Part shown: in pieces, positions 1,862-17,950 of the stretch | How the letters are laid out: each line of letters begins with the position of its first letter | Position numbering within the stretch: position 1 is the first letter of the stretch | Source of the DNA: a virus | Lineage: Duplodnaviria; Heunggongvirae; Uroviricota; Caudoviricetes | DNA length: 23,278 bases | IMG/VR virus record: IMGVR_UViG_2718218100_000005 | Reading direction: 5' to 3' (one strand) | Program-made: the position numbers and the translations under genes | The notes under the pieces: model-generated | The model's input: the letters and a program-made list of their open reading frames with translations, nothing else | Told to the model about the DNA's origin: nothing | Database searches by the model: none

Positions 1862-1945
1862 TTAACGGTTCACATCCCGAAAATCTGCGCTTCTGGCTGA
1901 AAGCCTGTCCGGTGGTCCTTCGTGAGCGATTTCATCAACAATGTA
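1862..1945 (-). pseudogene. continuation of the gpD-like gene on the other side of IS30, ending after 27 codons
   Basis: After removing IS30 plus one copy of the AG duplication the gpD frame continues in phase as YIVDEIAHEGPPDRLSARSADFRDVNR-stop; gpD-like similarity stops near 1862, implying a deletion of the remaining approx 300 codons. Confidence 0.5.
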
Positions 1946-2005
1946 AGTGTAGATTCAATTGGTCAACGCAACAGTTATGTGAAAACATGGGGTTGCGGAG
2001 GTTTG

Positions 2006-3018
2006 GAACTATGGAAGAACGGAACAGGCTTCAGTGAAATAGCGAATATCCTGGGTTCAAAACCCGGAACGATCTTCACTATGTTAAGGGATACTGGCGG
2101 CATAAAACCCCATGAGCGTAAGCGGGCTGTAGCTCACCTGACACTGTCTGAGCGCGAGGAGATACGAGCTGGTTTGTCAGCCAAAATGAGCATTCGTGCG
2201 ATAGCTACTGCGCTGAATCGCAGTCCTTCGACGATCTCACGTGAAGTTCAGCGTAATCGGGGCAGACGCTATTACAAAGCTGTTGATGCTAATAACCGAG
2301 CCAACAGAATGGCGAAAAGGCCAAAACCGTGCTTACTGGATCAAAATTTACCATTGCGAAAGCTTGTTCTGGAAAAGCTGGAGATGAAATGGTCTCCAGA
2401 GCAAATATCAGGATGGTTAAGGCGAACAAAACCACGTCAAAAAACGCTGCGAATATCACCTGAGACAATTTATAAAACGCTGTACTTTCGTAGCCGTGAA
2501 GCGCTACACCACCTGAATATACAGCATCTGCGACGGTCGCATAGCCTTCGCCATGGCAGGCGTCATACCCGCAAAGGCGAAAGAGGTACGATTAACATAG
2601 TGAACGGAACACCAATTCACGAACGTTCCCGAAATATCGATAACAGACGCTCTCTAGGGCATTGGGAGGGCGATTTAGTCTCAGGTACAAAAAACTCTCA
2701 TATAGCCACACTTGTAGACCGAAAATCACGTTATACGATCATCCTCAGACTCAGGGGCAAAGATTCTGTCTCAGTAAATCAGGCTCTTACCGACAAATTC
2801 CTGAGTTTACCGTCAGAACTCAGAAAATCACTGACATGGGACAGAGGAATGGAACTGGCCAGACATCTAGAATTTACTGTCAGCACCGGCGTTAAAGTTT
2901 ACTTCTGCGATCCTCAGAGTCCTTGGCAGCGGGGAACAAATGAGAACACAAATGGGCTAATTCGGCAGTACTTTCCTAAAAAGACATGTCTTGCCCAATA
3001 TACTCAACATGAACTAGA
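2006..3018 (+). pseudogene. IS30 transposase (InsI-like), 5' and 3' disrupted
   Basis: ORF 1922..3058 matches IS30 transposase from ELWKNGTGFSEIANILGS... to ...AQYTQHEL; N-terminus upstream of ELWK is read-through of the terminal repeat (no native start), 3' end runs into the IS629 terminus at 3019. Confidence 0.85.
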
Positions 3019-3060
3019 TGAACCGCCCCGGGTTTCCTGGAGAGTGTTTTATCTGTGAAC

Positions 3061-3951
3061 TCAGGCTGCCAGATCATCGTTTCCGATGGAAGCATAATAA
3101 GCTTTTTCTGCTTCTGCCGGAGGAGTATGGCCCAGCCTTCCCAGCAATCGTCGATTGTTATACCAGTCCACCCACGTTAGTGTGGCCAGTTCCACTTCTG
3201 CACGGTTTTTCCAGCTCTTACGGTGTATTACCTCCGCTTTGTAAAGACCATTGATGCTCTCAGCCATCGCGTTGTCATACGAGTCGCCTGTACTCCCTGT
3301 TGATGCCAGTAATCCGGCTTCTTTTAGTCGCTCCGTATAGGCCAGTGACACATACTGAGAGCCTTTATCGCTGTGATGGATGGTGCCAGACGGACGACGG
3401 GCCCACAACGCCTGCTCCAGCGCATCCAGCACGAATGTCGTTTCCATAGACGATGAGACCCGCCACCCCACGATGTATCCGGCAAACACATCAATGATAA
3501 ACGCCACATAGACGAAGCCCTGCCATGTGCTGACGTAAGTAAAATCAGCCACCCACAGCTGGTCAGGTCGTTCTGCCACGAACTGACGGTTTACGCGGTC
3601 GCCTGCGGCAACGGCTTTCCGGCTGATGGTCGTACGGACCTTTTTACCCCGGAGAACACCGGCAAGTCCCATAACCGCCATGAGACGTGCCACTGTACAT
3701 CTGGCCACCCTGATTCCTTCCCGTAACAACTGACGCCAGACTTTACGCACACCGTACACCTGATGATTTTCATCGTATACGCGCTGTATCTCTCTCTTCA
3801 GCCAGTCGTCGTGCTGCGCACGGGCACTGCGTTTATCCGGATGATGTCGCTGTTGCTGACAATGGTAATACGTTGACGGGGCAATATGCAGTTCGCTGCA
3901 TACCGGTCCGACCCCGTACTGCTCACGCAGCTTATCCAGCAGTGGCATCAT
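3061..3951 (-). CDS. IS3-family transposase OrfB (DDE integrase-like catalytic domain)
   Basis: 296-aa ORF overlapping orfA by ATGA; contains DDE-type motifs ([30 protein letters not shown]); probably expressed as OrfAB fusion by frameshift. Confidence 0.85.
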
Positions 3952-4274
3952 TTTTTCCAGAGGCGGTCGAACTCCGCCTTCGCAAAATAAGCGGAAGCCT
4001 GGCGAAGGATATCGTTACTGCGGCGCAGTTCACGATTTTCACGTTCCAGCTCTTTCAGACGCTGACGTTCAGCGCTGGTGAGCCCACCATCACCGCCCCC
4101 GGTATCCCGCTCATGCTGGCGAACCCAGACACGCAGAGTCTCCGGCGTACAGCCAATCTTTGGGGCAATGGAACAAATTGCCGCCCACTGTGAGTCATAT
4201 TCATCCTGACTTTCCAGAACCATACGAATCGCCCGCTGACGGACTTCGGGGGAAAAACGAGTATTTTTAGTCAT
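3948..4274 (-). CDS. IS3-family transposase OrfA (HTH)
   Basis: 108-aa [54 protein letters not shown]...; leucine-zipper-like C-terminus; typical IS629 OrfA. Confidence 0.85.
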
Positions 4275-6976: not shown

Positions 6977-7140
6977 TCACGGTTGTGTGCTTTGAGCACA
7001 TAGAAGACTTTGTGGCAGATATTGCCGTTATTTTTAACTGGTCGCCCGCCGAAATCTTCATGATGACGCCCGGCGAAGTGGTTAGCTGGCGTGAGCGGGC
7101 GGCACTTCGCAGCGGGAATGCAGACAATGAAGACTCTTGA
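6928..7140 (+). CDS. E' extension (-1 frame) of the tail chaperone
   Basis: 71 codons open in the -1 frame (ERCGLWREERTGDGSLITVV...RERAALRSGNADNEDS) reachable only by frameshifting at 6922-6928. Confidence 0.65.
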   Translation, partial: ERCGLWREERTGDGSLITVVCFEHIEDFVADIAVIFNWSPAEIFMMTPGEVVSWRERAALRSGNADNEDS

Positions 7141-9930
7141 TATCCGGGTCGCTTTCAGCGCCGTTGACAGGCTGACCCGACCTGCCGAAAACGCACGCCG
7201 CCTGATGGGGCAGTTTGGTGACTCCATCCAGCGAACGCAGGGGGCGATCAAAAATCTCGAGCGTCAGGCGCGATCATTTGAGCGCGCCCGCGACGCTGTC
7301 AGTAAAGCGGATGCTGGCATCGTGAAAGCACGACGCCAGCTTAACGCCCTTAATCAGTTACAACGCACGGGTACAGTGCTCAGCGAAAAACAACAAAAGC
7401 TGATGCAGCAGTTAAGCACCCGGCTTGAACGCCTGAATGAATCGCGCACACGGGAAATTCAGAAAATGAGGGAACTTGGCGGAGAGCTGAAACGCCACGG
7501 CATTTCCCTGACAGGCAGCGATAACACCATTCAGCAGGCCATCAGACGCACCGAACAATACAACAACCAGCTTGAACGCGAACGGCAGGCGCTTGCGCGT
7601 GTAACGCAGGCGCGTGAGCGGTATTCGCACGCGCAGGAAACCGCGGGAAAACTGAAAACAGGTGGTGCGCTGGCAATTGGTGCGGCAGCGGCGGGCGGCT
7701 ATGCTGCCGGGCGTTTTTTGCAGCCTGCGATCGGGTTCGGCAAAGAGATGTCCCGCGTTCAGGCACTGACGCGAATCGACAAAAACAGCCCGCAGTTTAA
7801 GGCGCTGCGTGAGCAGGCGTTAAAACTTGCTGAAACACAGTTTACTGCGAGTGATGCCGCCAGTGGGCAGAGCTTTCTGGCAATGGCTGGTTTTACTCCG
7901 CAGGCCATTCAGGCCGCATTGCCCGGTGTTCTTAATATGGCGCTGGCAGGTGGCGTCGAACTCGGCGAGACGGCTGATATAGGCTCCAATATCCTCACAC
8001 AGTTCAACCTGACAGCCGATCAAATGGACCGGGTGGGCGATACGCTGACAGCAGCATTTACCCGGACCAATACTGATTTACGCGCGCTGGGCGAAACCAT
8101 GAAGTATACCGGTCCGGTTGCCGCAAAACTTGGTATCAGTCTTGAAGAAGCGGCGGCCATGGCCGGGATGCTTGCCAATAATGGTCTTCGCGGAAGCGAT
8201 GCTGGCACGGCCATGCGCGCAAGTCTGTCCCGCCTTGCATCACCGCCAAAAGCTGCGGCTGATGCACTGAAAGAGCTGGGGGTGTCAGTTGCTGACGCCA
8301 GAGGCAAAATGCGCCCGATGGAGGATGTGCTGCTTGATCTCTATAAGGCGACACAAAAATACGGACAGGTGGACCAGGTCTCCTTCTTCAAGGACATCGC
8401 CGGAGAAGAGGCGTTCGTTGGTTTGCAGACGCTTGTTGCGGCGGCTGGTTCAGGAGAGCTGCAAAAACTGACCAGAGAATTGCAGGGGGCAAGGGGAGAG
8501 GCCGATCGCGTCGCAAAAGTAATGGCTGATAATCTTGATGGGGACCTGAAAAATCTCGACAGCGCATGGGAAGGTCTTCGTATTCGCATCAGTGATCTGG
8601 TTGACGGTCCGCTGCGTTCTGTCACGCAGTGGCTCACGCGGGGGCTTGAAAAAATCACCTCGCTGGCGCAGGCCCATCCGGTACTGACGCGCCAGCTACT
8701 GATAGCAGGCGGTGCGTTGCTGGCAATGACTGCAACGATTGGCTCGTTGTCGCTGGTTATTGGGGTGCTTTACGGGAAGCTGGCCACCCTGCGTCTTGGT
8801 TTTGACATTCTTACCCGGTCAATGAATGTCGTCAGGGTGTTACCTGCGCTATGGGGAATGGTGACGGGTTCCGTTTCTTTACTGGGAGGCGTTATCGGGG
8901 CGTTGTTCAGTCCGGTTGGTCTTATCGTGGCTGCGCTTGCCGGAGCTGCCGTTCTTATCTGGAAATACTGGGATCCTATCAGGGCTTTCTTTGCCGGGGT
9001 GTTCAGCGGGATTATGGAAAGGCTGACCCCGTTGCGCGACACCTTTGAACGGTTTGGCCCTGTTTTTGACGTAATCGGAAGCGGTTCAGCCAGGTGTTTA
9101 ACTGGTTTAAATCGCTGCTGTCACCGATGGAGTCCAGCAAGGAAACGCTGGATAAATGTACCAGTGCTGGCGAGGTATTCGGTAACGTTCTTGGTGGTGC
9201 GTTACAGCTTGTTCTGACGCCTGCAAAAATGTTGCTGGATACGCTGGCGTGGATACTTGAAAAACTCGGTGTGCTTCCGGATGAAGCGGAAAGGGCGCGC
9301 AAGAAAATCGAAGACGCACAACGTGCGGCCATTCTTCAGGACAAGGTTGCTCTGTTTCAGGGAGACATTGCGAAAATCAATCCGCCGAAGTCTGCGGGAA
9401 ATAGCAATGGCACCGGAGATGATAAACCCAAAGACAACAAACCTCTCACAGACAGCAATACCGGCACGCTACGCAGACTCAGCAAAATTGCTGATAACAC
9501 AGGTAAGCTGGTTGATGAGACAAAAAAACGCATTGGCCCCGGCGATATTGTCTTTAAGAACCTGCCCCGCGCACTTGCTGTTCGTGGGGAGTGGCAGGAG
9601 CGGAAGATTGCGCAGGTCAGTAAGCCTGCCCCCGCAATTAATATCACACCCGTGGTCCCGGCTCCGCTGCCTCCGGCGCTGGTCCCTGTTGTTGCGGCCA
9701 GCTCCCGCCCGGTGGTGGAGGCCATACGATCGCCAGTGGCATCAGTTCCTGCAACTTCCCGTAACCGGGAGCCTGTTGCCTCCGGATTTGGCGGTGAAAT
9801 TCATGTTCATCTGCATAACGTTGTTACGCAGAATCCCCGCGAACTGGCGAAACTGGTCGGCGAAATGGTCAGGGCAGAAATGGAACGGCGCGCCCGTGCC
9901 AGGCGTGGCAGTTTTTACGATAAAGATTGA
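7127..9930 (+). pseudogene. tail tape measure protein (P2 gpT-like) with a reading-frame break near 9068-9095
   Basis: Long coiled-coil N-terminal region, Gly/Ala-rich hydrophobic central segments and a C-terminal region, all typical of tape measure proteins; ORF 7091..9217 and ORF 9094..9930 are in different frames and together span one gene-sized unit (length not a multiple of 3). Confidence 0.75.
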
Positions 9931-9942
9931 GGAGTCATGGCC

Positions 9943-10431
9943 ATGATGATGATCTACGGCATGTTTGTTTTTGAGCTGCGCACGTTGCCGCATCAGCAGT
10001 TACAGCAAAACAAAAGCTGGCGACATGTGAAAAATGAACGCGTTAACCGTTCAGCAAGCTGGCAGTATATCGGTGCAGGTGATGATCGCATCGTTCTTTC
10101 TGGTGTTCTTTATCCTGAGATTACTGGTGGCGAAGTGTCGCTGTCGTTGTTGACCACGCAGGCATATACAGGACGTCCTTGGCCTTTGATTGATGGCGTC
10201 GGGCAGATTTACGGCATGTATGTCCTGACCGGAACGAATACGACCCGCTCCGAGTTTGATCGCTACGGTAAGGCGAAAAAGATAGAATTTTCACTGACTC
10301 TTGAACGCTGTGATGAGGATTTGCGGGAGCGCCTGCAATCCTCATCGTTCAGCGATATGCTGTCCGGCTTCAAAGATAAGGTGACATCATCCCTTAATAG
10401 CGCGGCCAGCTCAGTTAAGGGGCTGCTCTGA
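9943..10431 (+). CDS. tail protein (P2 gpU family)
   Basis: ORF 9937..10431; MMMIYGMFVFELRTLPHQQLQ...WRHV...YIGAGDDRIVLSGVLYPEITGG resembles P2 gpU; SD GAGGAG best spaced for ATG at 9943. Confidence 0.8.
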   Translation: MMMIYGMFVFELRTLPHQQLQQNKSWRHVKNERVNRSASWQYIGAGDDRIVLSGVLYPEITGGEVSLSLLTTQAYTGRPWPLIDGVGQIYGMYVLTGTNTTRSEFDRYGKAKKIEFSLTLERCDEDLRERLQSSSFSDMLSGFKDKVTSSLNSAASSVKGLL

Positions 10432-10507
10432 TTTAACGTATGTCGCCAATTTCCTGATGAAGGTGACTGGCGACTTGCTGTTGTATGTCCTTCTCAGAAA
10501 ATTGTTT

Positions 10508-10536
10508 TTGAATAACAAATAACAGGATTTTATAAT
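10508..10536 (+). promoter_or_regulatory. near-consensus sigma70 promoter (TTGAAT -35, 17-nt spacer, TATAAT -10) for the acetyltransferase cargo gene
   Basis: TTGAAT 10508-10513, TATAAT 10531-10536 in an AT-rich intergenic region. Confidence 0.5.
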
Positions 10537-10587
10537 CTCTTAACCTTATAACATGTGTGGTCTGAAATAATAATTAAGGAGATTATC

Positions 10588-11160
10588 GTGCTATCTTACT
10601 TAATGGCAATTCACTTTGTTTTATTTGGAAACTCTACTAATTTAAAAAACTTCTGGAAACATGAAGTAATTCGGCGGAAACGTATGGATATCTGGAGGCT
10701 TTTAAGAGAGAAAAAGCAGCGTAACCGGAATTTCCTTTTCTGGTGGCGGTTGGCTAACGAAATGTATATTAATGGTAATAAATTACATAAGAAAGCAGCC
10801 AAAAAGTTAAACAGTAAAATAATTAACAAGTTTGGTTGTGAAATAGGATTGGGCGCAAATATTGGAAAAGGGTTGACAATTCCCCATCATGCTGGAATTG
10901 TTGTTCATTTTGCTGTTGATGCGGGTGAAAATCTGGTATTACGACAGAATACTACCATTGGACAGATAGATGGTGATATGCCTAGTTCAAGAGTAAAAAT
11001 TGGTAGTAACGTTGATATCGGAGCTAATTGTTGCATCATTGGATTATCACGTAAAATTGGGGATAATGTAAAAATAGGTGCAATGTCTTTTATAAATAAA
11101 GATATACCATCAAACTGCACATATATAACTAAAAAGAGTGGTGTTGTATTGTATAAATAG
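10588..11160 (+). CDS. hexapeptide-repeat (left-handed beta-helix) acyl/acetyltransferase, serine O-acetyltransferase-like
   Basis: GTG start 7 nt after SD AAGGAGA; tandem hexapeptide repeats (IGLGAN, IGKGLT, IGSNVD, IGANCC, IGLSRK, IGDNVK) and an HHAGIVV...G motif as in CysE/LacA-type transferases; markedly AT-rich versus flanking tail genes. Confidence 0.8.
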   Translation: MLSYLMAIHFVLFGNSTNLKNFWKHEVIRRKRMDIWRLLREKKQRNRNFLFWWRLANEMYINGNKLHKKAAKKLNSKIINKFGCEIGLGANIGKGLTIPHHAGIVVHFAVDAGENLVLRQNTTIGQIDGDMPSSRVKIGSNVDIGANCCIIGLSRKIGDNVKIGAMSFINKDIPSNCTYITKKSGVVLYK

Positions 11161-11170
11161 AGTACATAAA

Positions 11171-11206
11171 GCCATCGATATTTCTGTCGATGGCTTTTTC
11201 TTTTTA
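11171..11206. terminator. rho-independent terminator (8-bp stem GCCATCGA/TCGATGGC plus T run), mainly for the plus-strand acetyltransferase gene
   Basis: Perfect hairpin 11171-11194 followed by TTTTTCTTTTTATT. Confidence 0.7.
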
Positions 11207-11736
11207 TTGTGGGGCGACTGGCCACTCAACATCCGCTGCTACTGTTGTATCAACACGATTCAACAATACCCGATATGTCTTCCATGCAGCCAGTAACGAT
11301 GCCTCTTCCTCCGTCGCAATATCCAAATCTACGGCATCCTGAAGTGGCGCAATATGCTCACTGGCTACCTGCATCAGGCTGTTTTTTGTTTCTTCTGCCT
11401 CCCGTACCCGAAACAGTTTTTCTGCTTCTGCATCTTTCGCCCAGGATGTGCCGTTCCACTTCTGACACTCTCCATCCGGCGACAACCAGGTAACATTTTC
11501 CGGTAACGGACCGAGTTCAGAAATAAATAACGCGTCGCCGGAAGCCACGTCATAAACCGTTTTACCCCGATGATCTTCAACGAGATGCCACGATGCCTCA
11601 TTACTGTTGAAAACAGCCACGAAGCCAGCCGGAATATCTGGCGGTGCAATATCGGTACTGTTTGCTGGCAGACCTGTATGAGGCGGAATGTATGCGTCAC
11701 CTTCACCAATAAATTCATTAGTTCCGGCCAGCAGAT
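11204..11736 (-). pseudogene. tail fibre assembly protein (P2 gpG/Tfa family), 5' end removed by IS629 copy 2
   Basis: Minus-strand frame reads ...[62 protein letters not shown]...[35 protein letters not shown], with the C-terminal motif characteristic of Tfa; open frame runs without start codon up to the IS terminus at 11737. Confidence 0.8.
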
Positions 11737-11790: not shown

Positions 11791-12117
11791 ATGACTAAAA
11801 ATACACGTTTTTCCCCCGAGGTCCGTCAACGGGCAGTCCGTATGGTTCTGGAAAGTCAGGGCGAATATGACTCACAATGGGCGGCAATTTGTTCCATTGC
11901 CCCAAAGATTGGCTGTACACCAGAGACTCTGCGTGTGTGGGTTCGTCAGCATGAGCGGGATACCGGGGGCGGTGATGGTGGACTCACCACCGCTGAACGT
12001 CAGCGTCTGAAAGAGCTGGAACGTGAAAATCGTGAACTGCGCCGCAGTAACGATATCCTTCGCCAGGCTTCCGCTTATTTTGCGAAGGCGGAGTTCGACC
12101 GCCTCTGGAAAAAATGA
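11791..12117 (+). CDS. IS3-family transposase OrfA
   Basis: 108-aa ORF nearly identical to copy 1 OrfA (differs at a few residues, e.g. AVRMV/QGEYD/LTTAE). Confidence 0.85.
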
Positions 12118-12796
12118 TGCCACTGCTGGATAAGCTGCGTGAGCAGTACGGGGTCGGACCGGTATGCAGCGAACTGCATATTGCCCCGTCAACGTATTAC
12201 CATTGTCAGCAACAGCGACATCATCCGGATAAACGCAGTGCCCGTGCGCAGCACGACGACTGGCTGAAGAGAGAGATACAGCGCGTATACGATGAAAATC
12301 ATCAGGTGTACGGTGTGCGTAAAGTCTGGCGTCAGTTGTTACGGGAAGGAATCAGGGTGGCCAGATGTACAGTGGCACGTCTCATGGCGGTTATGGGACT
12401 TGCCGGTGTTCTCCGGGGTAAAAAGGTCCGTACGACCATCAGCCGGAAAGCCGTTGCCGCAGGCGACCGCGTAAACCGTCAGTTCGTGGCAGAACGACCT
12501 GACCAGCTGTGGGTGGCTGATTTTACTTACGTCAGCACATGGCAGGGCTTCGTCTATGTGGCGTTTATCATTGATGTGTTTGCCGGATACATCGTGGGGT
12601 GGCGGGTCTCATCGTCTATGGAAACGACATTCGTGCTGGATGCACTGGAGCAGGCGTTGTGGGCCCGTCGGCCGTCCGGCACAGTCCATCACAGTGATAA
12701 AGGTTCTCAGTATGTATCACTGGCCTATACGGAGCGACTAAAAGAAGCAAAACTGCTGGCATCAACAGGGAGTACAGGTGACTCGTATGACAATGT
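12114..12796 (+). pseudogene. IS3-family transposase OrfB, 3'-truncated
   Basis: Matches copy 1 OrfB up to ...[11 protein letters not shown] then ends in unrelated sequence (ORF 12114..12806, 230 aa versus 296 aa). Confidence 0.8.
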
Positions 12797-12825
12797 ATTT
12801 TATTAGTTCACATACAATTATCAGA

Positions 12826-13140
12826 TTATTCTGGGAATAAGGTCTGAATATTCTTTTTTATTTTATAAAAATTGCATTCAACTCCGCTAGGCTGATTAGC
12901 CTGGTATGTTTCCTTGATGCTAACGGTATTGAAGGGGAGGTTGTCCTCTGGCCATTCGGCCATCCAGTAGGCAAATGCTGGGTTGCGCTTTATGAGTGCT
13001 AGCCCAGCCAGAAAGGCCGCGCGTTGCGCGCGGCTGCGTTCGGAGGCTGGCAGGCTATCGAGGTAATTGCACGCCTCCTGTTCACTCTTGACGGCGGCGG
13101 GCTTCAGATAGAAACTTATCCGTCTGGTTGGTGTCGTCAT
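12826..13140 (-). CDS. ParR/StbB-like ribbon-helix-helix partition adaptor (possibly C-terminally shortened)
   Basis: 104-aa ORF 4 nt downstream of the parM-like gene; ISFYLKPA...LDSLPASERSRAQRAAFLAGLALI resembles plasmid R1 ParR N-terminal DNA-binding region; 3' end lies in AT-rich DNA next to the IS truncation point. Confidence 0.6.
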   Translation of the reverse strand: MTTPTRRISFYLKPAAVKSEQEACNYLDSLPASERSRAQRAAFLAGLALIKRNPAFAYWMAEWPEDNLPFNTVSIKETYQANQPSGVECNFYKIKKNIQTLFPE

Positions 13141-13144
13141 TGGT

Positions 13145-14104
13145 TTACTCCTTGTTCATTGCGTACAACCCATTAACCAGAGCAAACTGTGGCACCCCGT
13201 CCGCGATGAAAGTCGCATTAACTCCGCAGGCTTCGCGGATAGCGGTTGCCACAATCTCCGCCCCGCCACCGACAACCATCACCCGCCCGTAACCCGAAAA
13301 AACCGCCAGCGCGCGGATCACGCGTTGTTTCAGTGTTTCTTCCTTTTCACGAATAACCGCCATCAGGCTGGCGTAATGCGCGTCATTGTGGATGTGCTGG
13401 CGCAGCCAGGCTTCATCATGGCGATGTTCGATAATGGTATTGGCGATGTGGTGACTGGTGCGCATACCGTTAGTGGCCATCACCGACAGTACGGCATCGG
13501 CCATCAGAGAAACGCCTACGTGTGGATCGCAAAACACCTGGCTGATACCTGCCAGTTGCCCCTGAACCTTTGCCACATCCAGCGTGGTTCCGCCCAAATC
13601 CACAATCAGCAGGGATTCAAACGGACTCATGTCAGCCAGTGCCTTAAAGCCAGCAGGAATGGATTCAGGCATAACCCGTACGTTACGGATAGTGAATGCT
13701 TCGCCGTTCTGGTACTCCACCGGGCGCATGACGTTCGCTTTTTTGCGGTTGATGTTGGCCATGTCCGGCTGTGCGTTTGTATCGAAATACTCGCTCAGTG
13801 GCAGGGTGACAACCACATCCACTTCCTGTGGTGTGATGCCTGATTTGACCAGCGCGTGATGAATGGCAATTACATTCACATCGCTGTACTGGTATTGCGT
13901 GTCGGTCGTCTGGACAAAGCGATCGCTGACCGGATCAAAACCATAGCGCACGCCATCAAGCATGTAGTTCGCGGGCTGCGTGCCACCGAATGGCGCAGAC
14001 CATTCCGACTTGAAGCTGTTCGGGCTGATGGCGTTGCGGCGTTCGCCGTTCTCAGTCCATGCCAGCTTGATGTTGGTGGAGCCGTCGTCGATACAAATTT
14101 TCAT
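13145..14104 (-). CDS. ParM/StbA-like actin-type segregation ATPase
   Basis: 319-aa ORF starting MKICIDDGSTNIKLAW; co-linear similarity to plasmid R1 ParM (ISPNSFK, YSDVNV, HHAL, VMPESIPAG, DLGGTTLD, GVSL, FSGY, GGGAE, LVNG motifs). Confidence 0.8.
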   Translation of the reverse strand: MKICIDDGSTNIKLAWTENGERRNAISPNSFKSEWSAPFGGTQPANYMLDGVRYGFDPVSDRFVQTTDTQYQYSDVNVIAIHHALVKSGITPQEVDVVVTLPLSEYFDTNAQPDMANINRKKANVMRPVEYQNGEAFTIRNVRVMPESIPAGFKALADMSPFESLLIVDLGGTTLDVAKVQGQLAGISQVFCDPHVGVSLMADAVLSVMATNGMRTSHHIANTIIEHRHDEAWLRQHIHNDAHYASLMAVIREKEETLKQRVIRALAVFSGYGRVMVVGGGAEIVATAIREACGVNATFIADGVPQFALVNGLYAMNKE

Positions 14105-17678: not shown

Positions 17679-17857
17679 GGTGTGGCCTCTTTGCTCGGTG
17701 ATAGAAATAACTCACCATCCAGAGTTGAGAATCTCGGGGTGGCGAGACGTACAGGGTTCTCAACACCGGAGAGCAAAGAATCCGGCCCGACCGAAGTCGG
17801 CCCCGTACGCCCCGCCATAATTCTGACGCGAAAAAGACGTGGCAATACAGTACGCAC

Positions 17858-17878
17858 AAAAAAACCGCTAGCGCGGTT
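17858..17878 (-). terminator. candidate rho-independent terminator for the minus-strand early operon
   Basis: On the minus strand AACCGC-GCTA-GCGGTT hairpin followed by T7; short stem, so moderate confidence. Confidence 0.4.
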
Positions 17879-17950
17879 ATGCGCTTTGCTCTGTATCGGG
17901 TTGAGAATCCCGGCACCCGTTTTATGAGGTGCAGCGGAAATGTAACCTGA

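What the first reader, a model, noticed from the sequence alone, without database searches (positions are those of the whole stretch)
10440..11206. Self-contained AT-rich acetyltransferase moron at the tail-fibre-assembly/sheath junction
A single hexapeptide-repeat (CysE/LacA-like) acyltransferase gene sits between gpU and the Tfa remnant with its own near-consensus sigma70 promoter (TTGAAT-17-TATAAT), a strong SD and a perfect-stem terminator. Its base composition is far more AT-rich than the neighbouring tail genes. After correcting for the inversion it occupies the position of the P2 Z/fun cargo locus, a site known to hold phage-exclusion or lysogenic-conversion genes. An acetyltransferase here could modify a surface polysaccharide or a small molecule, but the substrate is unknown.
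Basis: partly seen in the sequence, partly recalled or inferred. Interest (0 to 1): 0.6.

Follow-up and report, generated by a model that had tools for sequence, protein, structure and literature searches.

The report
Tail-fibre-linked prophage acetyltransferase cargo gene
A small, intact, AT-rich acetyltransferase gene rides next to the tail-fibre genes of a decayed P2-like prophage of E. coli O157:H7; it is mislabelled a cysteine-pathway enzyme and more likely acetylates the cell's lipopolysaccharide, the surface these phages bind.

Summary
Window 10588-11160 (+) encodes a 190-aa left-handed beta-helix acetyltransferase. It has a conserved sigma70-like promoter, a Shine-Dalgarno site and a terminator. 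Its G+C is 33-37%, against 50-60% in the flanks. It lies between gpU and a 5'-truncated tfa in a degraded P2-like prophage of E. coli O157:H7.

The gene is under purifying selection (dN/dS 0.1-0.2) and occurs in 529 of 5426 complete E. coli genomes. RefSeq calls it serine O-acetyltransferase. It fails the CysE tests: score far below cut-off, short N-domain, no Ser-binding Arg-His, no C-terminal tail.

Relatives sit convergent with tail-fibre-assembly genes in canonical P2-likes (the exact Fun(Z) slot), inside the invertible C segment of P1-like phage-plasmids, and in Mu-like and Proteus prophages. The acetyltransferase, tfa and the fibre tip moved together between P2-like and P1-like phages.

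Chromosomal relatives (44-46% identity across the full-length alignment) are operonic in LPS-core clusters of Leminorella and several Pseudomonas lineages.

Best reading, inferred and untested: a lysogenic-conversion O-acetyltransferase acting on LPS, probably the core. This would be a new member of a known kind, and the substrate is unproven.

The parts
9937..10431 (+). gpU tail gene, the last gene of the FI-U tail operon and the upstream neighbour. A terminator-like hairpin at 10407-10425 overlaps its end.
   Evidence: Pfam Phage_P2_GpU, 131.5 bits; hairpin.
10508..10536 (+). Sigma70-like promoter, TTGAAT-17-TATAAT.
   Evidence: 10 of 12 matches. The block is near-identical in L060 and in L003, where the protein is only 71% identical. 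It is replaced by other promoter-like sites in P1-like and canonical P2-like contexts.
10576..10581 (+). Shine-Dalgarno AAGGAG, 6 nt before the GTG start.
   Evidence: Sequence; conserved in the alignment.
10588..11160 (+). 190-aa acetyltransferase: a five-helix N-domain (residues 1-82) followed by a left-handed beta-helix.
   Evidence: NCBIfam, PHROG, PDB, model and fold search. dN/dS 0.1-0.2. Catalytic His100 and acidic Glu85 are conserved.
11168..11197 (+). Intrinsic terminator in the 43-nt gap between the convergent acetyltransferase and tfa genes.
   Evidence: 13-pair stem with a T-run. An analogous terminator is found in L183.
11204..11734 (-). Tail-fibre-assembly gene (tfa), 5'-truncated: 176 codons against 192 in intact relatives. 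It is convergent with the acetyltransferase.
   Evidence: Pfam Caudo_TAP, 138 bits; RefSeq annotation; comparison with intact tfa genes.
11791..12806 (+). Truncated IS3-family element. It replaces the rest of the tail-fibre, baseplate and head region and marks the boundary of decay.
   Evidence: RefSeq 'IS3 family transposase, frameshifted, incomplete'; ALIL pseudoknot at 12072-12188.

Best explanation
The gene is a functional lysogenic-conversion moron.

Shown: it is an autonomous, intact, selectively maintained gene for a cytoplasmic acetyl-CoA-dependent O-acetyltransferase with the serine-acetyltransferase architecture. It lacks the features needed to use serine. It is physically coupled to the host-range module (tail-fibre tip plus Tfa chaperone) and moves with it between phage families.

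Inferred: the prophage expresses it from its own promoter. [quoted passage not shown] The most likely target is the LPS core oligosaccharide. The modification changes the surface that these LPS/OmpC-binding fibres and other phages recognise. That would give the lysogen adsorption-level exclusion, with possible effects on host interactions.
For: Enzyme and fold:
- NCBIfam EpsC 76 bits, cysE 62, WcaB 55.
- PDB CysE E 1.5e-12.
- Model pLDDT 83.6; the top Foldseek hits are all serine acetyltransferases.
- The catalytic His (H100, aligned to CysE His158) and the acidic partner (E85, aligned to Asp143) are conserved in 42 relatives.

Functional gene:
- dN/dS is 0.02-0.28, typically 0.10-0.20.
- It is present in 529 of 5426 complete E. 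coli genomes.
- It is retained although the rest of the tail-fibre and head region is deleted.

Cargo anatomy:
- Own promoter, Shine-Dalgarno site and terminator; low G+C.
- It has the same topology as P2 fun(Z).
- CFT073 neaT, a different acyltransferase family, sits in the same slot, is also AT-rich, and has shown virulence and aggregation phenotypes (PMC3573123).

Linkage to the fibre module:
- Of 33 clusters at 90% identity, 11 have a convergent tfa within 200 nt and one has a convergent tail-fibre gene.
- This arrangement is seen in P2-like, P1-like (inside the Cin-invertible segment), Mu-like and Proteus prophages.
- A block of 1.8-2.25 kb at 93-96% nucleotide identity is shared between P2-like and P1-like phages. 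It runs from acetyltransferase codon 3 through tfa into the last 200-350 codons of the fibre gene.

Substrate lead:
- In Leminorella the relative is the last gene of waaG-waaP-GT4-GT8-waaY-waaZ-acT, convergent with waaL.
- In three Pseudomonas lineages it lies between a GT2 gene (downstream of the wapO-like carbamoyltransferase) and a membrane protein in the waaP...msbA core cluster. In the two P. mendocina-group lineages its start overlaps the end of the GT2 gene.
- The best local alignment to one such member is 51% identical over 142 aa.
- The Leminorella gene's nearest relatives are tfa-linked phage genes.
- Pseudomonas core is known to be O-acetylated and the transferases are unidentified (PMC8005017).
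- The linked fibre tip is about 61% identical to the T4 gp37 C-terminus. T4 gp37 binds OmpC/LPS (established knowledge).
Against: - No biochemical or phenotypic data exist for any member. The JL22 paper says the role is unknown.
- The LPS-core inference rests on relatives only 44-46% identical across the full-length alignment, in other genera.
- O-acetyl groups are not described for the E. coli R3 core or the O157 antigen (my knowledge; base-labile groups are often lost in analysis).
- Many family members are orphans between housekeeping genes, on plasmids or in islets. That pattern equally fits a ubiquitous small-molecule substrate.
- Co-transfer with tfa may reflect only adjacency at a recombination hotspot.
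- Expression in the lysogen is not shown. The protein was not found in an O157 proteome supplement, but that file was cut when stored.
Confidence: 0.45

Rival explanations
1. It O-acetylates another envelope glycan (O-antigen unit, enterobacterial common antigen, colanic acid or capsule). Its main benefit is serological or host-interaction change, not phage exclusion.
For: - The closest named families are EPS and colanic-acid acetyltransferases (EpsC, WcaB).
- NeuO is a precedent: a beta-helix capsule O-acetyltransferase on prophage CUS-3 (my knowledge).
- neaT in the same P2 slot affects virulence and aggregation.
- In L103 the core-cluster segment carrying the gene is followed by WbpA/B/D/E-like sugar-nucleotide genes.
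- A homologue lies on bfp-type virulence plasmids.
Against: - Four independent chromosomal members are in core clusters, not O-antigen or capsule clusters.
- Orphan members occur in hosts with unrelated O-antigens. That argues for a conserved acceptor.
Confidence: 0.22
2. It is a genuine, minimal serine O-acetyltransferase, or it acetylates another small metabolite. In that case it is a metabolic auxiliary gene that boosts O-acetylserine and cysteine supply or signalling.
For: - RefSeq and UniProt name it so.
- The nearest solved structures are all serine acetyltransferases.
- The catalytic dyad is conserved.
- Many orphan copies sit in unrelated genomic contexts.
Against: - TIGR01172 cysE scores 62.4 against a cut-off of 210.65, and PRK11132 scores 36.6 against 397.
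- There is no SATase_N domain hit. The N-domain is 82 aa, against about 140 in CysE.
- CysE Asp157, Arg192 and His193 align to Pro99, Ser134 and Arg135, in a loop that is variable across the family.
- There is no C-terminal CysK-binding tail; the protein ends ...VLYK.
Confidence: 0.1
3. It is an intracellular anti-phage or anti-defence factor, or a xenobiotic or antibiotic acetyltransferase, and has nothing to do with the envelope.
For: - The P2 Fun(Z) slot holds an exclusion gene that blocks T5.
- P2 hotspots are rich in defence systems (PMC9122126).
Against: - There is no PADLOC match.
- There is no match to CatB or Vat-type xenobiotic acetyltransferase models in NCBIfam.
- It is a single gene with no sensor or effector partner.
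- Operonic membership in LPS-core clusters points elsewhere.
Confidence: 0.1
4. In O157:H7 it is merely a surviving passenger of a decaying prophage, with no current role.
For: - The prophage is heavily degraded: IS30 and IS3 insertions, a truncated D gene, a frameshifted tape-measure gene, a truncated tfa, and the head genes lost.
- The protein was not found in a proteome table (incomplete file).
Against: - The ORF, promoter, Shine-Dalgarno site and terminator are intact. They are 100% identical across many O157 genomes.
- The family-wide dN/dS is 0.1-0.2.
Confidence: 0.08

Closest known systems
NeuO, the K1 capsule O-acetyltransferase of prophage CUS-3 (my knowledge of Deszo et al. 2005; not re-read here)
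   Same: A phage-borne, stand-alone hexapeptide-repeat (left-handed beta-helix) cytoplasmic O-acetyltransferase. It sits next to the receptor-binding (tailspike) gene and modifies the very glycan the phage recognises.
   Different: NeuO belongs to the NodL/LacA-like branch and is phase-variable through heptanucleotide repeats. The window gene has the SAT/WcaB-like architecture, no repeat tract, and no shown substrate.
NeaT of E. coli CFT073 P2-like prophage phi-b0847 (PMC3573123)
   Same: The same 'moron position 2' between G and FI, the same opposite orientation, extreme AT-richness (30% G+C), and an acyltransferase with phage-hopping relatives. NeaT has shown effects on aggregation, phagocyte interaction and systemic virulence.
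   Different: NeaT is an integral-membrane Acyl_transf_3 protein (PF01757) and is unrelated in fold. The window protein is a soluble beta-helix enzyme.
P2 Fun(Z)
   Same: The same slot and topology: convergent with G and divergent from FI in canonical P2-likes. It is a non-essential lysogenic-conversion gene.
   Different: It is an unrelated 528-aa protein that blocks T5. In this window the FI-U operon is inverted, so the gene lies between U and tfa.
CysE serine O-acetyltransferase
   Same: The overall architecture (helical N-domain plus beta-helix) and the catalytic His/acidic dyad. It is the best match among solved structures.
   Different: The window protein scores far below the family cut-off. 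Its N-domain is shortened, the Ser-binding Asp157, Arg192 and His193 are absent, and there is no CysK-binding tail.
WcaB (colanic acid) and EpsC-type EPS acetyltransferases
   Same: Short SAT-like beta-helix enzymes of 160-190 aa that acetylate lipid-linked sugar repeat units in the cytoplasm. They are the best NCBIfam matches.
   Different: Scores are 54-76 bits against cut-offs of 150-196, so the window protein is not an orthologue. Those genes sit in EPS operons, not on phages.
Oac, OacB-D and GtrC O-antigen acetyltransferases of Shigella and Salmonella phages
   Same: Prophage-encoded O-acetylation of LPS that gives serotype conversion and blocks superinfection.
   Different: They are membrane acyltransferase-3 enzymes that act in the periplasm, and they are usually located near int/att rather than next to tail-fibre genes.

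Membership tests
Left-handed beta-helix (hexapeptide-repeat) acyltransferase superfamily | Tandem hexapeptide repeats that form a left-handed beta-helix | tested here: met
   Pfam Hexapep alone is sub-threshold (24.1 against 27). NCBIfam EpsC/cysE match at E 2e-21 and 5e-17, and PDB CysE at E 1.5e-12. The model matches solved serine acetyltransferases with probability 1.0 and TM about 0.65.
Left-handed beta-helix (hexapeptide-repeat) acyltransferase superfamily | Catalytic histidine with an acidic partner | tested here: met
   His100 aligns to the CysE catalytic His and is conserved in at least 90% of 42 relatives. Glu85 (Glu or Asp in relatives) aligns to CysE Asp143.
Serine O-acetyltransferase CysE (EC 2.3.1.30) | Score at or above the curated equivalog cut-off | tested here: not met
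   TIGR01172 scores 62.4 against 210.65. PRK11132 scores 36.6 against 397.
Serine O-acetyltransferase CysE (EC 2.3.1.30) | Full SATase_N helical domain | tested here: not met
   No PF06426 hit. The model has only five helices in residues 1-82.
Serine O-acetyltransferase CysE (EC 2.3.1.30) | Serine/cysteine-binding Asp157, Arg192 and His193 (E. coli numbering, from my knowledge) | tested here: not met
   They align to Pro99, Ser134 and Arg135. The loop is variable and gapped across the family.
Serine O-acetyltransferase CysE (EC 2.3.1.30) | C-terminal tail ending in Ile that binds CysK | tested here: not met
   The protein ends ...SGVVLYK directly after the beta-helix.
WcaB colanic-acid acetyltransferase | Score at or above the equivalog cut-off, and location in the wca operon | tested here: not met
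   Scores are 54-56 bits against cut-offs of 195-196. The gene is in a prophage.
PHROG 2154 (phage protein family, unknown function) | Full-length profile match | tested here: met
   291.9 bits, E 2.9e-87, residues 13-190.
P2 'moron position 2' (Z/fun slot) cargo | Located between tail-fibre-assembly gene G and sheath gene FI | tested here: inconclusive
   In this window it lies between U and tfa, because this lineage has FI-U inverted. Relatives 45-70% identical lie exactly between G and FI.
P2 'moron position 2' (Z/fun slot) cargo | Transcribed opposite to and convergent with G, with its own signals and atypical composition | tested here: met
   The gene is convergent with tfa across a 43-nt gap that holds a terminator. 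It has a promoter-like site and a Shine-Dalgarno site. G+C is 0.33-0.37.
Known anti-phage defence systems (PADLOC) | Match to any defence-protein model | tested here: not met
   No family at E up to 0.1.
LPS-core O-acetyltransferase (proposed; no curated family exists) | Operonic with waa/core genes; transfers acetyl to a core sugar | not testable with these tools
   Relatives in Leminorella and Pseudomonas core clusters meet the context criterion. No member has a demonstrated activity, and the window gene itself is on a prophage.

The most novel reading that the evidence does not exclude
This SAT-like family (PHROG 2154) comprises the long-unassigned cytoplasmic O-acetyltransferases of the LPS core. 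Temperate myoviruses (P2-, P1- and Mu-like) carry them welded to the tail-fibre tip and Tfa, forming a single exchangeable cassette. One half of the cassette binds the receptor. The other half masks that receptor in the lysogen.
Probability: 0.3. Interest if true: 0.65.

Novelty: new member of a known kind. Interest (0 to 1): 0.48.

Why it matters
About one in ten complete E. coli genomes, all the O157:H7 genomes listed among the best matches, and many P1-like phage-plasmids carry this gene. It goes under a name, 'serine O-acetyltransferase', that the sequence does not support.

If the enzyme acetylates LPS core, four things follow.
- It would identify a class of enzymes still unassigned for core O-acetylation. 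PMC8005017 states that the transferases remain to be identified.
- It would add a cryptic, base-labile surface modification to a major pathogen.
- It would explain part of phage host-range and typing variability.
- It would show that receptor-binding and receptor-masking functions are exchanged between unrelated phage families as one unit. That is relevant to phage therapy and to engineering host range.

If instead the gene turns out to have no envelope role, the correction of the annotation is the only lasting outcome.

Tried and rejected
- PADLOC: no hit.
- Pfam alone is sub-threshold for Hexapep and has no SATase_N hit. Fold assignment therefore needed NCBIfam, PDB and a structure model.
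- Literature: the P2/P4 hotspot papers (PMC9122126, PMC13586616) do not mention an acetyltransferase, and neither discusses the G/FI (Z/fun) slot in the text searched. The JL22 paper only notes the gene and calls its role unknown. The C. rodentium prophage paper lists a 'serine acetyltransferase' as a fitness gene without data. Searches for CP-933T plus acetyltransferase, and for locus tags, gave nothing useful.
- O157 proteome supplement: no entry for Z2982-Z2986. The file was cut when stored, so this is inconclusive.
It was still useful for chromosomal contexts.
- The neighbours of 14 species-representative relatives are mostly unrelated housekeeping genes, so there is no single conserved partner.
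- A 20-nt inverted repeat flanking the acetyltransferase and tfa (10448-10467 and 11696-11715) looked like a remnant of an invertible segment. It scores only at the upper edge of shuffled controls and was set aside.
- Rfam found no RNA element in 10432-11203.
- I considered that the gene modifies the fibre or Tfa protein itself. I set this aside because beta-helix acetyltransferases act on sugars and small molecules, and because the gene has its own promoter opposite the late operon. The idea is not excluded.
Full report
WHERE THE WINDOW COMES FROM

The 767-bp finding is 100% identical to many E. coli O157:H7 chromosomes, including EDL933. RefSeq annotation of EDL933 places it in a degraded P2-like prophage (CP-933T) between tRNA-Leu and yecA. 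The gene order there is:
- IS30;
- a truncated D gene (minus strand);
- FI, FII, E, E', a frameshifted T and U (plus strand);
- 'serine O-acetyltransferase' (plus strand);
- tail-fibre-assembly protein (minus strand);
- a truncated IS3-family element;
- StbB/ParM, the replication endonuclease, the early genes and the integrase.

Compared with EDL933, the window has about 1.3 kb more upstream, which is an additional IS3-family copy.

CHECK OF THE OBSERVATION

- The ORF is 10555-11160. Its real start is GTG 10588. That is the RefSeq start, and P1-like copies have ATG at the same codon. It is preceded by AAGGAG at 10576-10581.
- A TTGAAT-17-TATAAT site lies at 10508-10536, and a 13-pair hairpin with a T-run lies at 11168-11197.
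- G+C falls to 0.33-0.37 across the gene, from 0.50-0.60 in the tail genes.
- The number of promoter-like sites is not above chance in this AT-rich DNA (4 found, 3.7 expected). However, this particular block is almost identical in relatives whose protein is only 71% identical. In P1-like and canonical P2-like contexts it is replaced by other well-placed promoter-like sites.
- gpU and Tfa are confirmed by Pfam. The tfa gene lacks about 16 N-terminal codons relative to intact relatives and abuts the IS3 remnant.

WHAT THE PROTEIN IS

Pfam Hexapep is just below threshold. Other evidence settles the fold.
- NCBIfam gives EpsC 76 bits, cysE 62, WcaB 55 and a tail of other beta-helix transferases. 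All are far below their equivalog cut-offs.
- PHROG 2154 ('unknown function') matches at 292 bits.
- PDB sequence search gives serine acetyltransferases at E 1.5e-12.
- An AlphaFold model built on 42 homologues (pLDDT 83.6) has five N-terminal helices (residues 1-82) followed by a beta-helix. Its best Foldseek matches are all solved serine acetyltransferases, with TM about 0.65.

Using the HMMER alignment to N. gonorrhoeae CysE and the family alignment, I mapped the CysE active-site residues.
- The catalytic His (E. coli His158) corresponds to His100, which is nearly invariant.
- The acidic partner (Asp143) corresponds to Glu85, which is Glu or Asp throughout the family.
- Asp157, Arg192 and His193, which hold serine or cysteine in CysE (numbering from my knowledge of the CysE structures), correspond to Pro99, Ser134 and Arg135. 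These lie in a loop that is variable and gapped in the family.
- There is no SATase_N hit, and the protein ends immediately after the helix. So there is no CysK-binding tail.

The RefSeq name is therefore a fold-level transfer, not a supported function. PADLOC has no match.

IS IT A LIVE GENE?

Pairwise Nei-Gojobori dN/dS among ten alleles is 0.02-0.28, typically 0.10-0.20. This holds at dS up to about 2. Homologues occur in 529 of 5426 complete E. coli genomes, at 533 chromosomal and 66 plasmid places. They also occur in 35 plasmids that are mostly P1-like phage-plasmids of 87-105 kb. Two isolated P1-like phages carry the gene: JL22 and vB_EcoM-Ro157c2YLVW, the latter held as two records. The gene is intact in O157 although the adjacent tail-fibre, baseplate and head genes are gone.

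GENOMIC HABIT OF THE FAMILY

The arrangement D(-) | FI..U(+) | acT(+) | tfa(-) | H(-)... is not an accident of decay. It is the native order in dozens of 33-36 kb prophage contigs and in complete-looking prophages next to serS.

Phage P2 itself has H, G, a terminator, fun(Z) on the opposite strand, then FI. Family members 65-70% and 45-48% identical to the window protein have exactly that topology in canonical P2-like prophages of E. coli and Leclercia. This lineage simply carries the FI-U operon inverted, which leaves the gene convergent with tfa and downstream of U.

The same convergent pairing with a tail-fibre-assembly or tail-fibre gene recurs in several other settings:
- in P1-like phage-plasmids, inside the Cin-invertible C segment (602-bp inverted repeats at L002 4401-5002 and 9263-9864; the gene is at 7000-7572);
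- in a Salmonella prophage with a Mu-like baseplate;
- at the end of a Proteus prophage;
- in contigs only 45% identical.

Clustering all copies I held at 90% identity gives 33 clusters. Eleven have a convergent tfa within 200 nt. One more has a convergent fibre gene. Fourteen have fibre or tfa genes within 3 kb. Sampling is biased, because part of the set came from a viral collection.

BLASTN between P2-like carriers and JL22 shows one shared block of 1.8-2.25 kb at 93-96% identity. It starts at codon 3 of the acetyltransferase and runs through tfa into the last 200-350 codons of the fibre gene. The enzyme, the chaperone and the fibre tip have therefore been exchanged between unrelated phage families as one piece, while the promoter was left behind.

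The fibre tip is about 61% identical to the T4 gp37 C-terminus. That fibre class binds OmpC and LPS (established knowledge).

Other members sit at a prophage end beside copA, on bfp-type plasmids, in a Salmonella islet next to an integrase, and as orphans between housekeeping genes.

THE SUBSTRATE LEAD

Among species-representative genomes, the relative in Leminorella grimontii is 45% identical across the full-length alignment (48% over its tblastn segment). It is the last gene of an operon. Pfam and NCBIfam identify the other members as waaG, waaP, a GT4, a GT8, waaY and waaZ (WaaZ scores 402 bits against a cut-off of 200). The operon is convergent with the O-antigen ligase waaL. The whole outer-core block there is low in G+C, like the gene.

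In Pseudomonas sp. HAR-UPW-AIA-41 and in two P. mendocina-group lineages, each seen in 45-50 collection blocks, the relative lies between a GT2 gene and a membrane protein. This is inside the cluster of waaP-type kinases, the wapO-like carbamoyltransferase, msbA, Mig-14 and PIG-L. In the two P. mendocina-group lineages its start overlaps the end of the GT2 gene. The cluster matches the published P. aeruginosa and P. syringae core-OS cluster (PMC8005017).

Identity of these Pseudomonas members to the window protein is 44-46% across the full-length alignment. The best local alignment to one of them is 51% over 142 aa.

In a neighbour-joining tree, the Leminorella gene groups with tfa-linked genes of Leclercia, Salmonella and Proteus prophages (47-59% identity to the Leminorella gene). 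Phage cargo copies and core-operon copies therefore interleave.

[quoted passage not shown] Pseudomonas cores are heavily O-acetylated, and the paper states that the transferases remain to be identified.

INTERPRETATION

Shown:
- an autonomous, conserved, selectively maintained beta-helix acetyltransferase gene;
- not a credible CysE;
- linked to and co-transferred with the tail-fibre host-range module;
- with homologues that are bona fide members of LPS-core operons.

Inferred:
- it is expressed in the lysogen;
- it O-acetylates LPS, probably the core;
- this alters adsorption of phages that use that surface, including phages bearing the linked fibre.

The closest functional precedents are:
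- NeuO of CUS-3, a beta-helix capsule O-acetyltransferase next to the tailspike gene (my knowledge);
- NeaT of CFT073, a different acyltransferase family in the same P2 slot, with the same orientation and AT-richness, and with shown effects on aggregation and systemic virulence;
- the Oac and GtrC O-antigen acetyltransferases.

Rivals are listed separately with their tests. They are another envelope glycan, a true SAT or small-molecule role, an intracellular defence role, and a functionless passenger.

VERDICT

It is a new, uncharacterised member of a known kind of prophage cargo, with a misleading database name. It now carries a concrete, testable hypothesis about its substrate. Interest is moderate.

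Noticed in passing
window 11241-11439 (-): Rfam IS009 (RF02111) matches at 191 bits inside the tfa coding region, on the coding strand. It is probably a family built on a conserved prophage tfa segment rather than an independent sRNA.
   Followed up: no
window 17735-17822 (-) and 17858-17932 (-): Rfam C4 antisense RNA (78.5 bits) and isrK (63 bits) lie side by side in the early region of the prophage. This is a P1/P7-type antisense immunity element inside a P2-like remnant.
   Followed up: no
window 12826-14104 (-): A StbB/ParM plasmid-partition gene pair lies inside the prophage (Pfam Plasmid_stab_B, StbA_N and ParM_N). Rousset et al. 2022 report that about a quarter of P2-like phages carry such a system in their hotspot.
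   Followed up: partly
window 1922-4274 and 11791-12806: The window has about 1.3 kb more than EDL933 between tRNA-Leu and FI. The extra DNA is a full IS3-family copy (ORFs 3948-4274 and 3061-3951, minus strand, with an ALIL pseudoknot at 3877-3993) abutting IS30 (1922-3058). A second, truncated copy at 11791-12806 cuts the 5' end of tfa.
   Followed up: partly
window 7091-9930: The tape-measure gene is split into two overlapping ORFs (7091-9217 and 9094-9930). RefSeq marks it as frameshifted.
   Followed up: no
window 10448-10467 and 11696-11715: A 20-nt inverted repeat (17 of 20 matches) brackets the acetyltransferase and tfa. The left arm resembles the tfa 5' coding sequence. Its local-alignment score is 25, against 18.6 +/- 2.1 (maximum 26) in shuffles. 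It is borderline and probably chance.
   Followed up: yes
L003-L007, 8617-9605: In prophages next to serS, a second cargo unit lies between the acetyltransferase and the full-length tfa. It consists of a SAM-dependent methyltransferase (222 aa) and an 87-aa tfa 3' remnant. Tandem 'cargo plus tfa-end' units suggest serial insertion by recombination within tfa.
   Followed up: partly
L002 (phage JL22) 4401-9864: The acetyltransferase sits in the unique centre of the Cin-invertible C segment. Its orientation relative to the late tail-fibre operon therefore flips with inversion. In one orientation it is convergent with tfa. In the other it would lie downstream of U and co-directional with it.
   Followed up: partly
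L069 and L077, about 160 nt upstream of the gene: A short fragment of a cin/gin-like DNA invertase (35 aa, 66-69% identity) lies just upstream of 93%-identical copies of the gene. This hints at an ancestral invertible tail-fibre segment in that lineage.
   Followed up: no
L008-L012 and L003-L007: A hok-like toxin ORF (46 aa, weak Pfam HOK_GEF match) lies about 200 nt upstream of the 57%-identical copy at a prophage end next to copA. Another lies beside ogr in the serS prophages.
   Followed up: no
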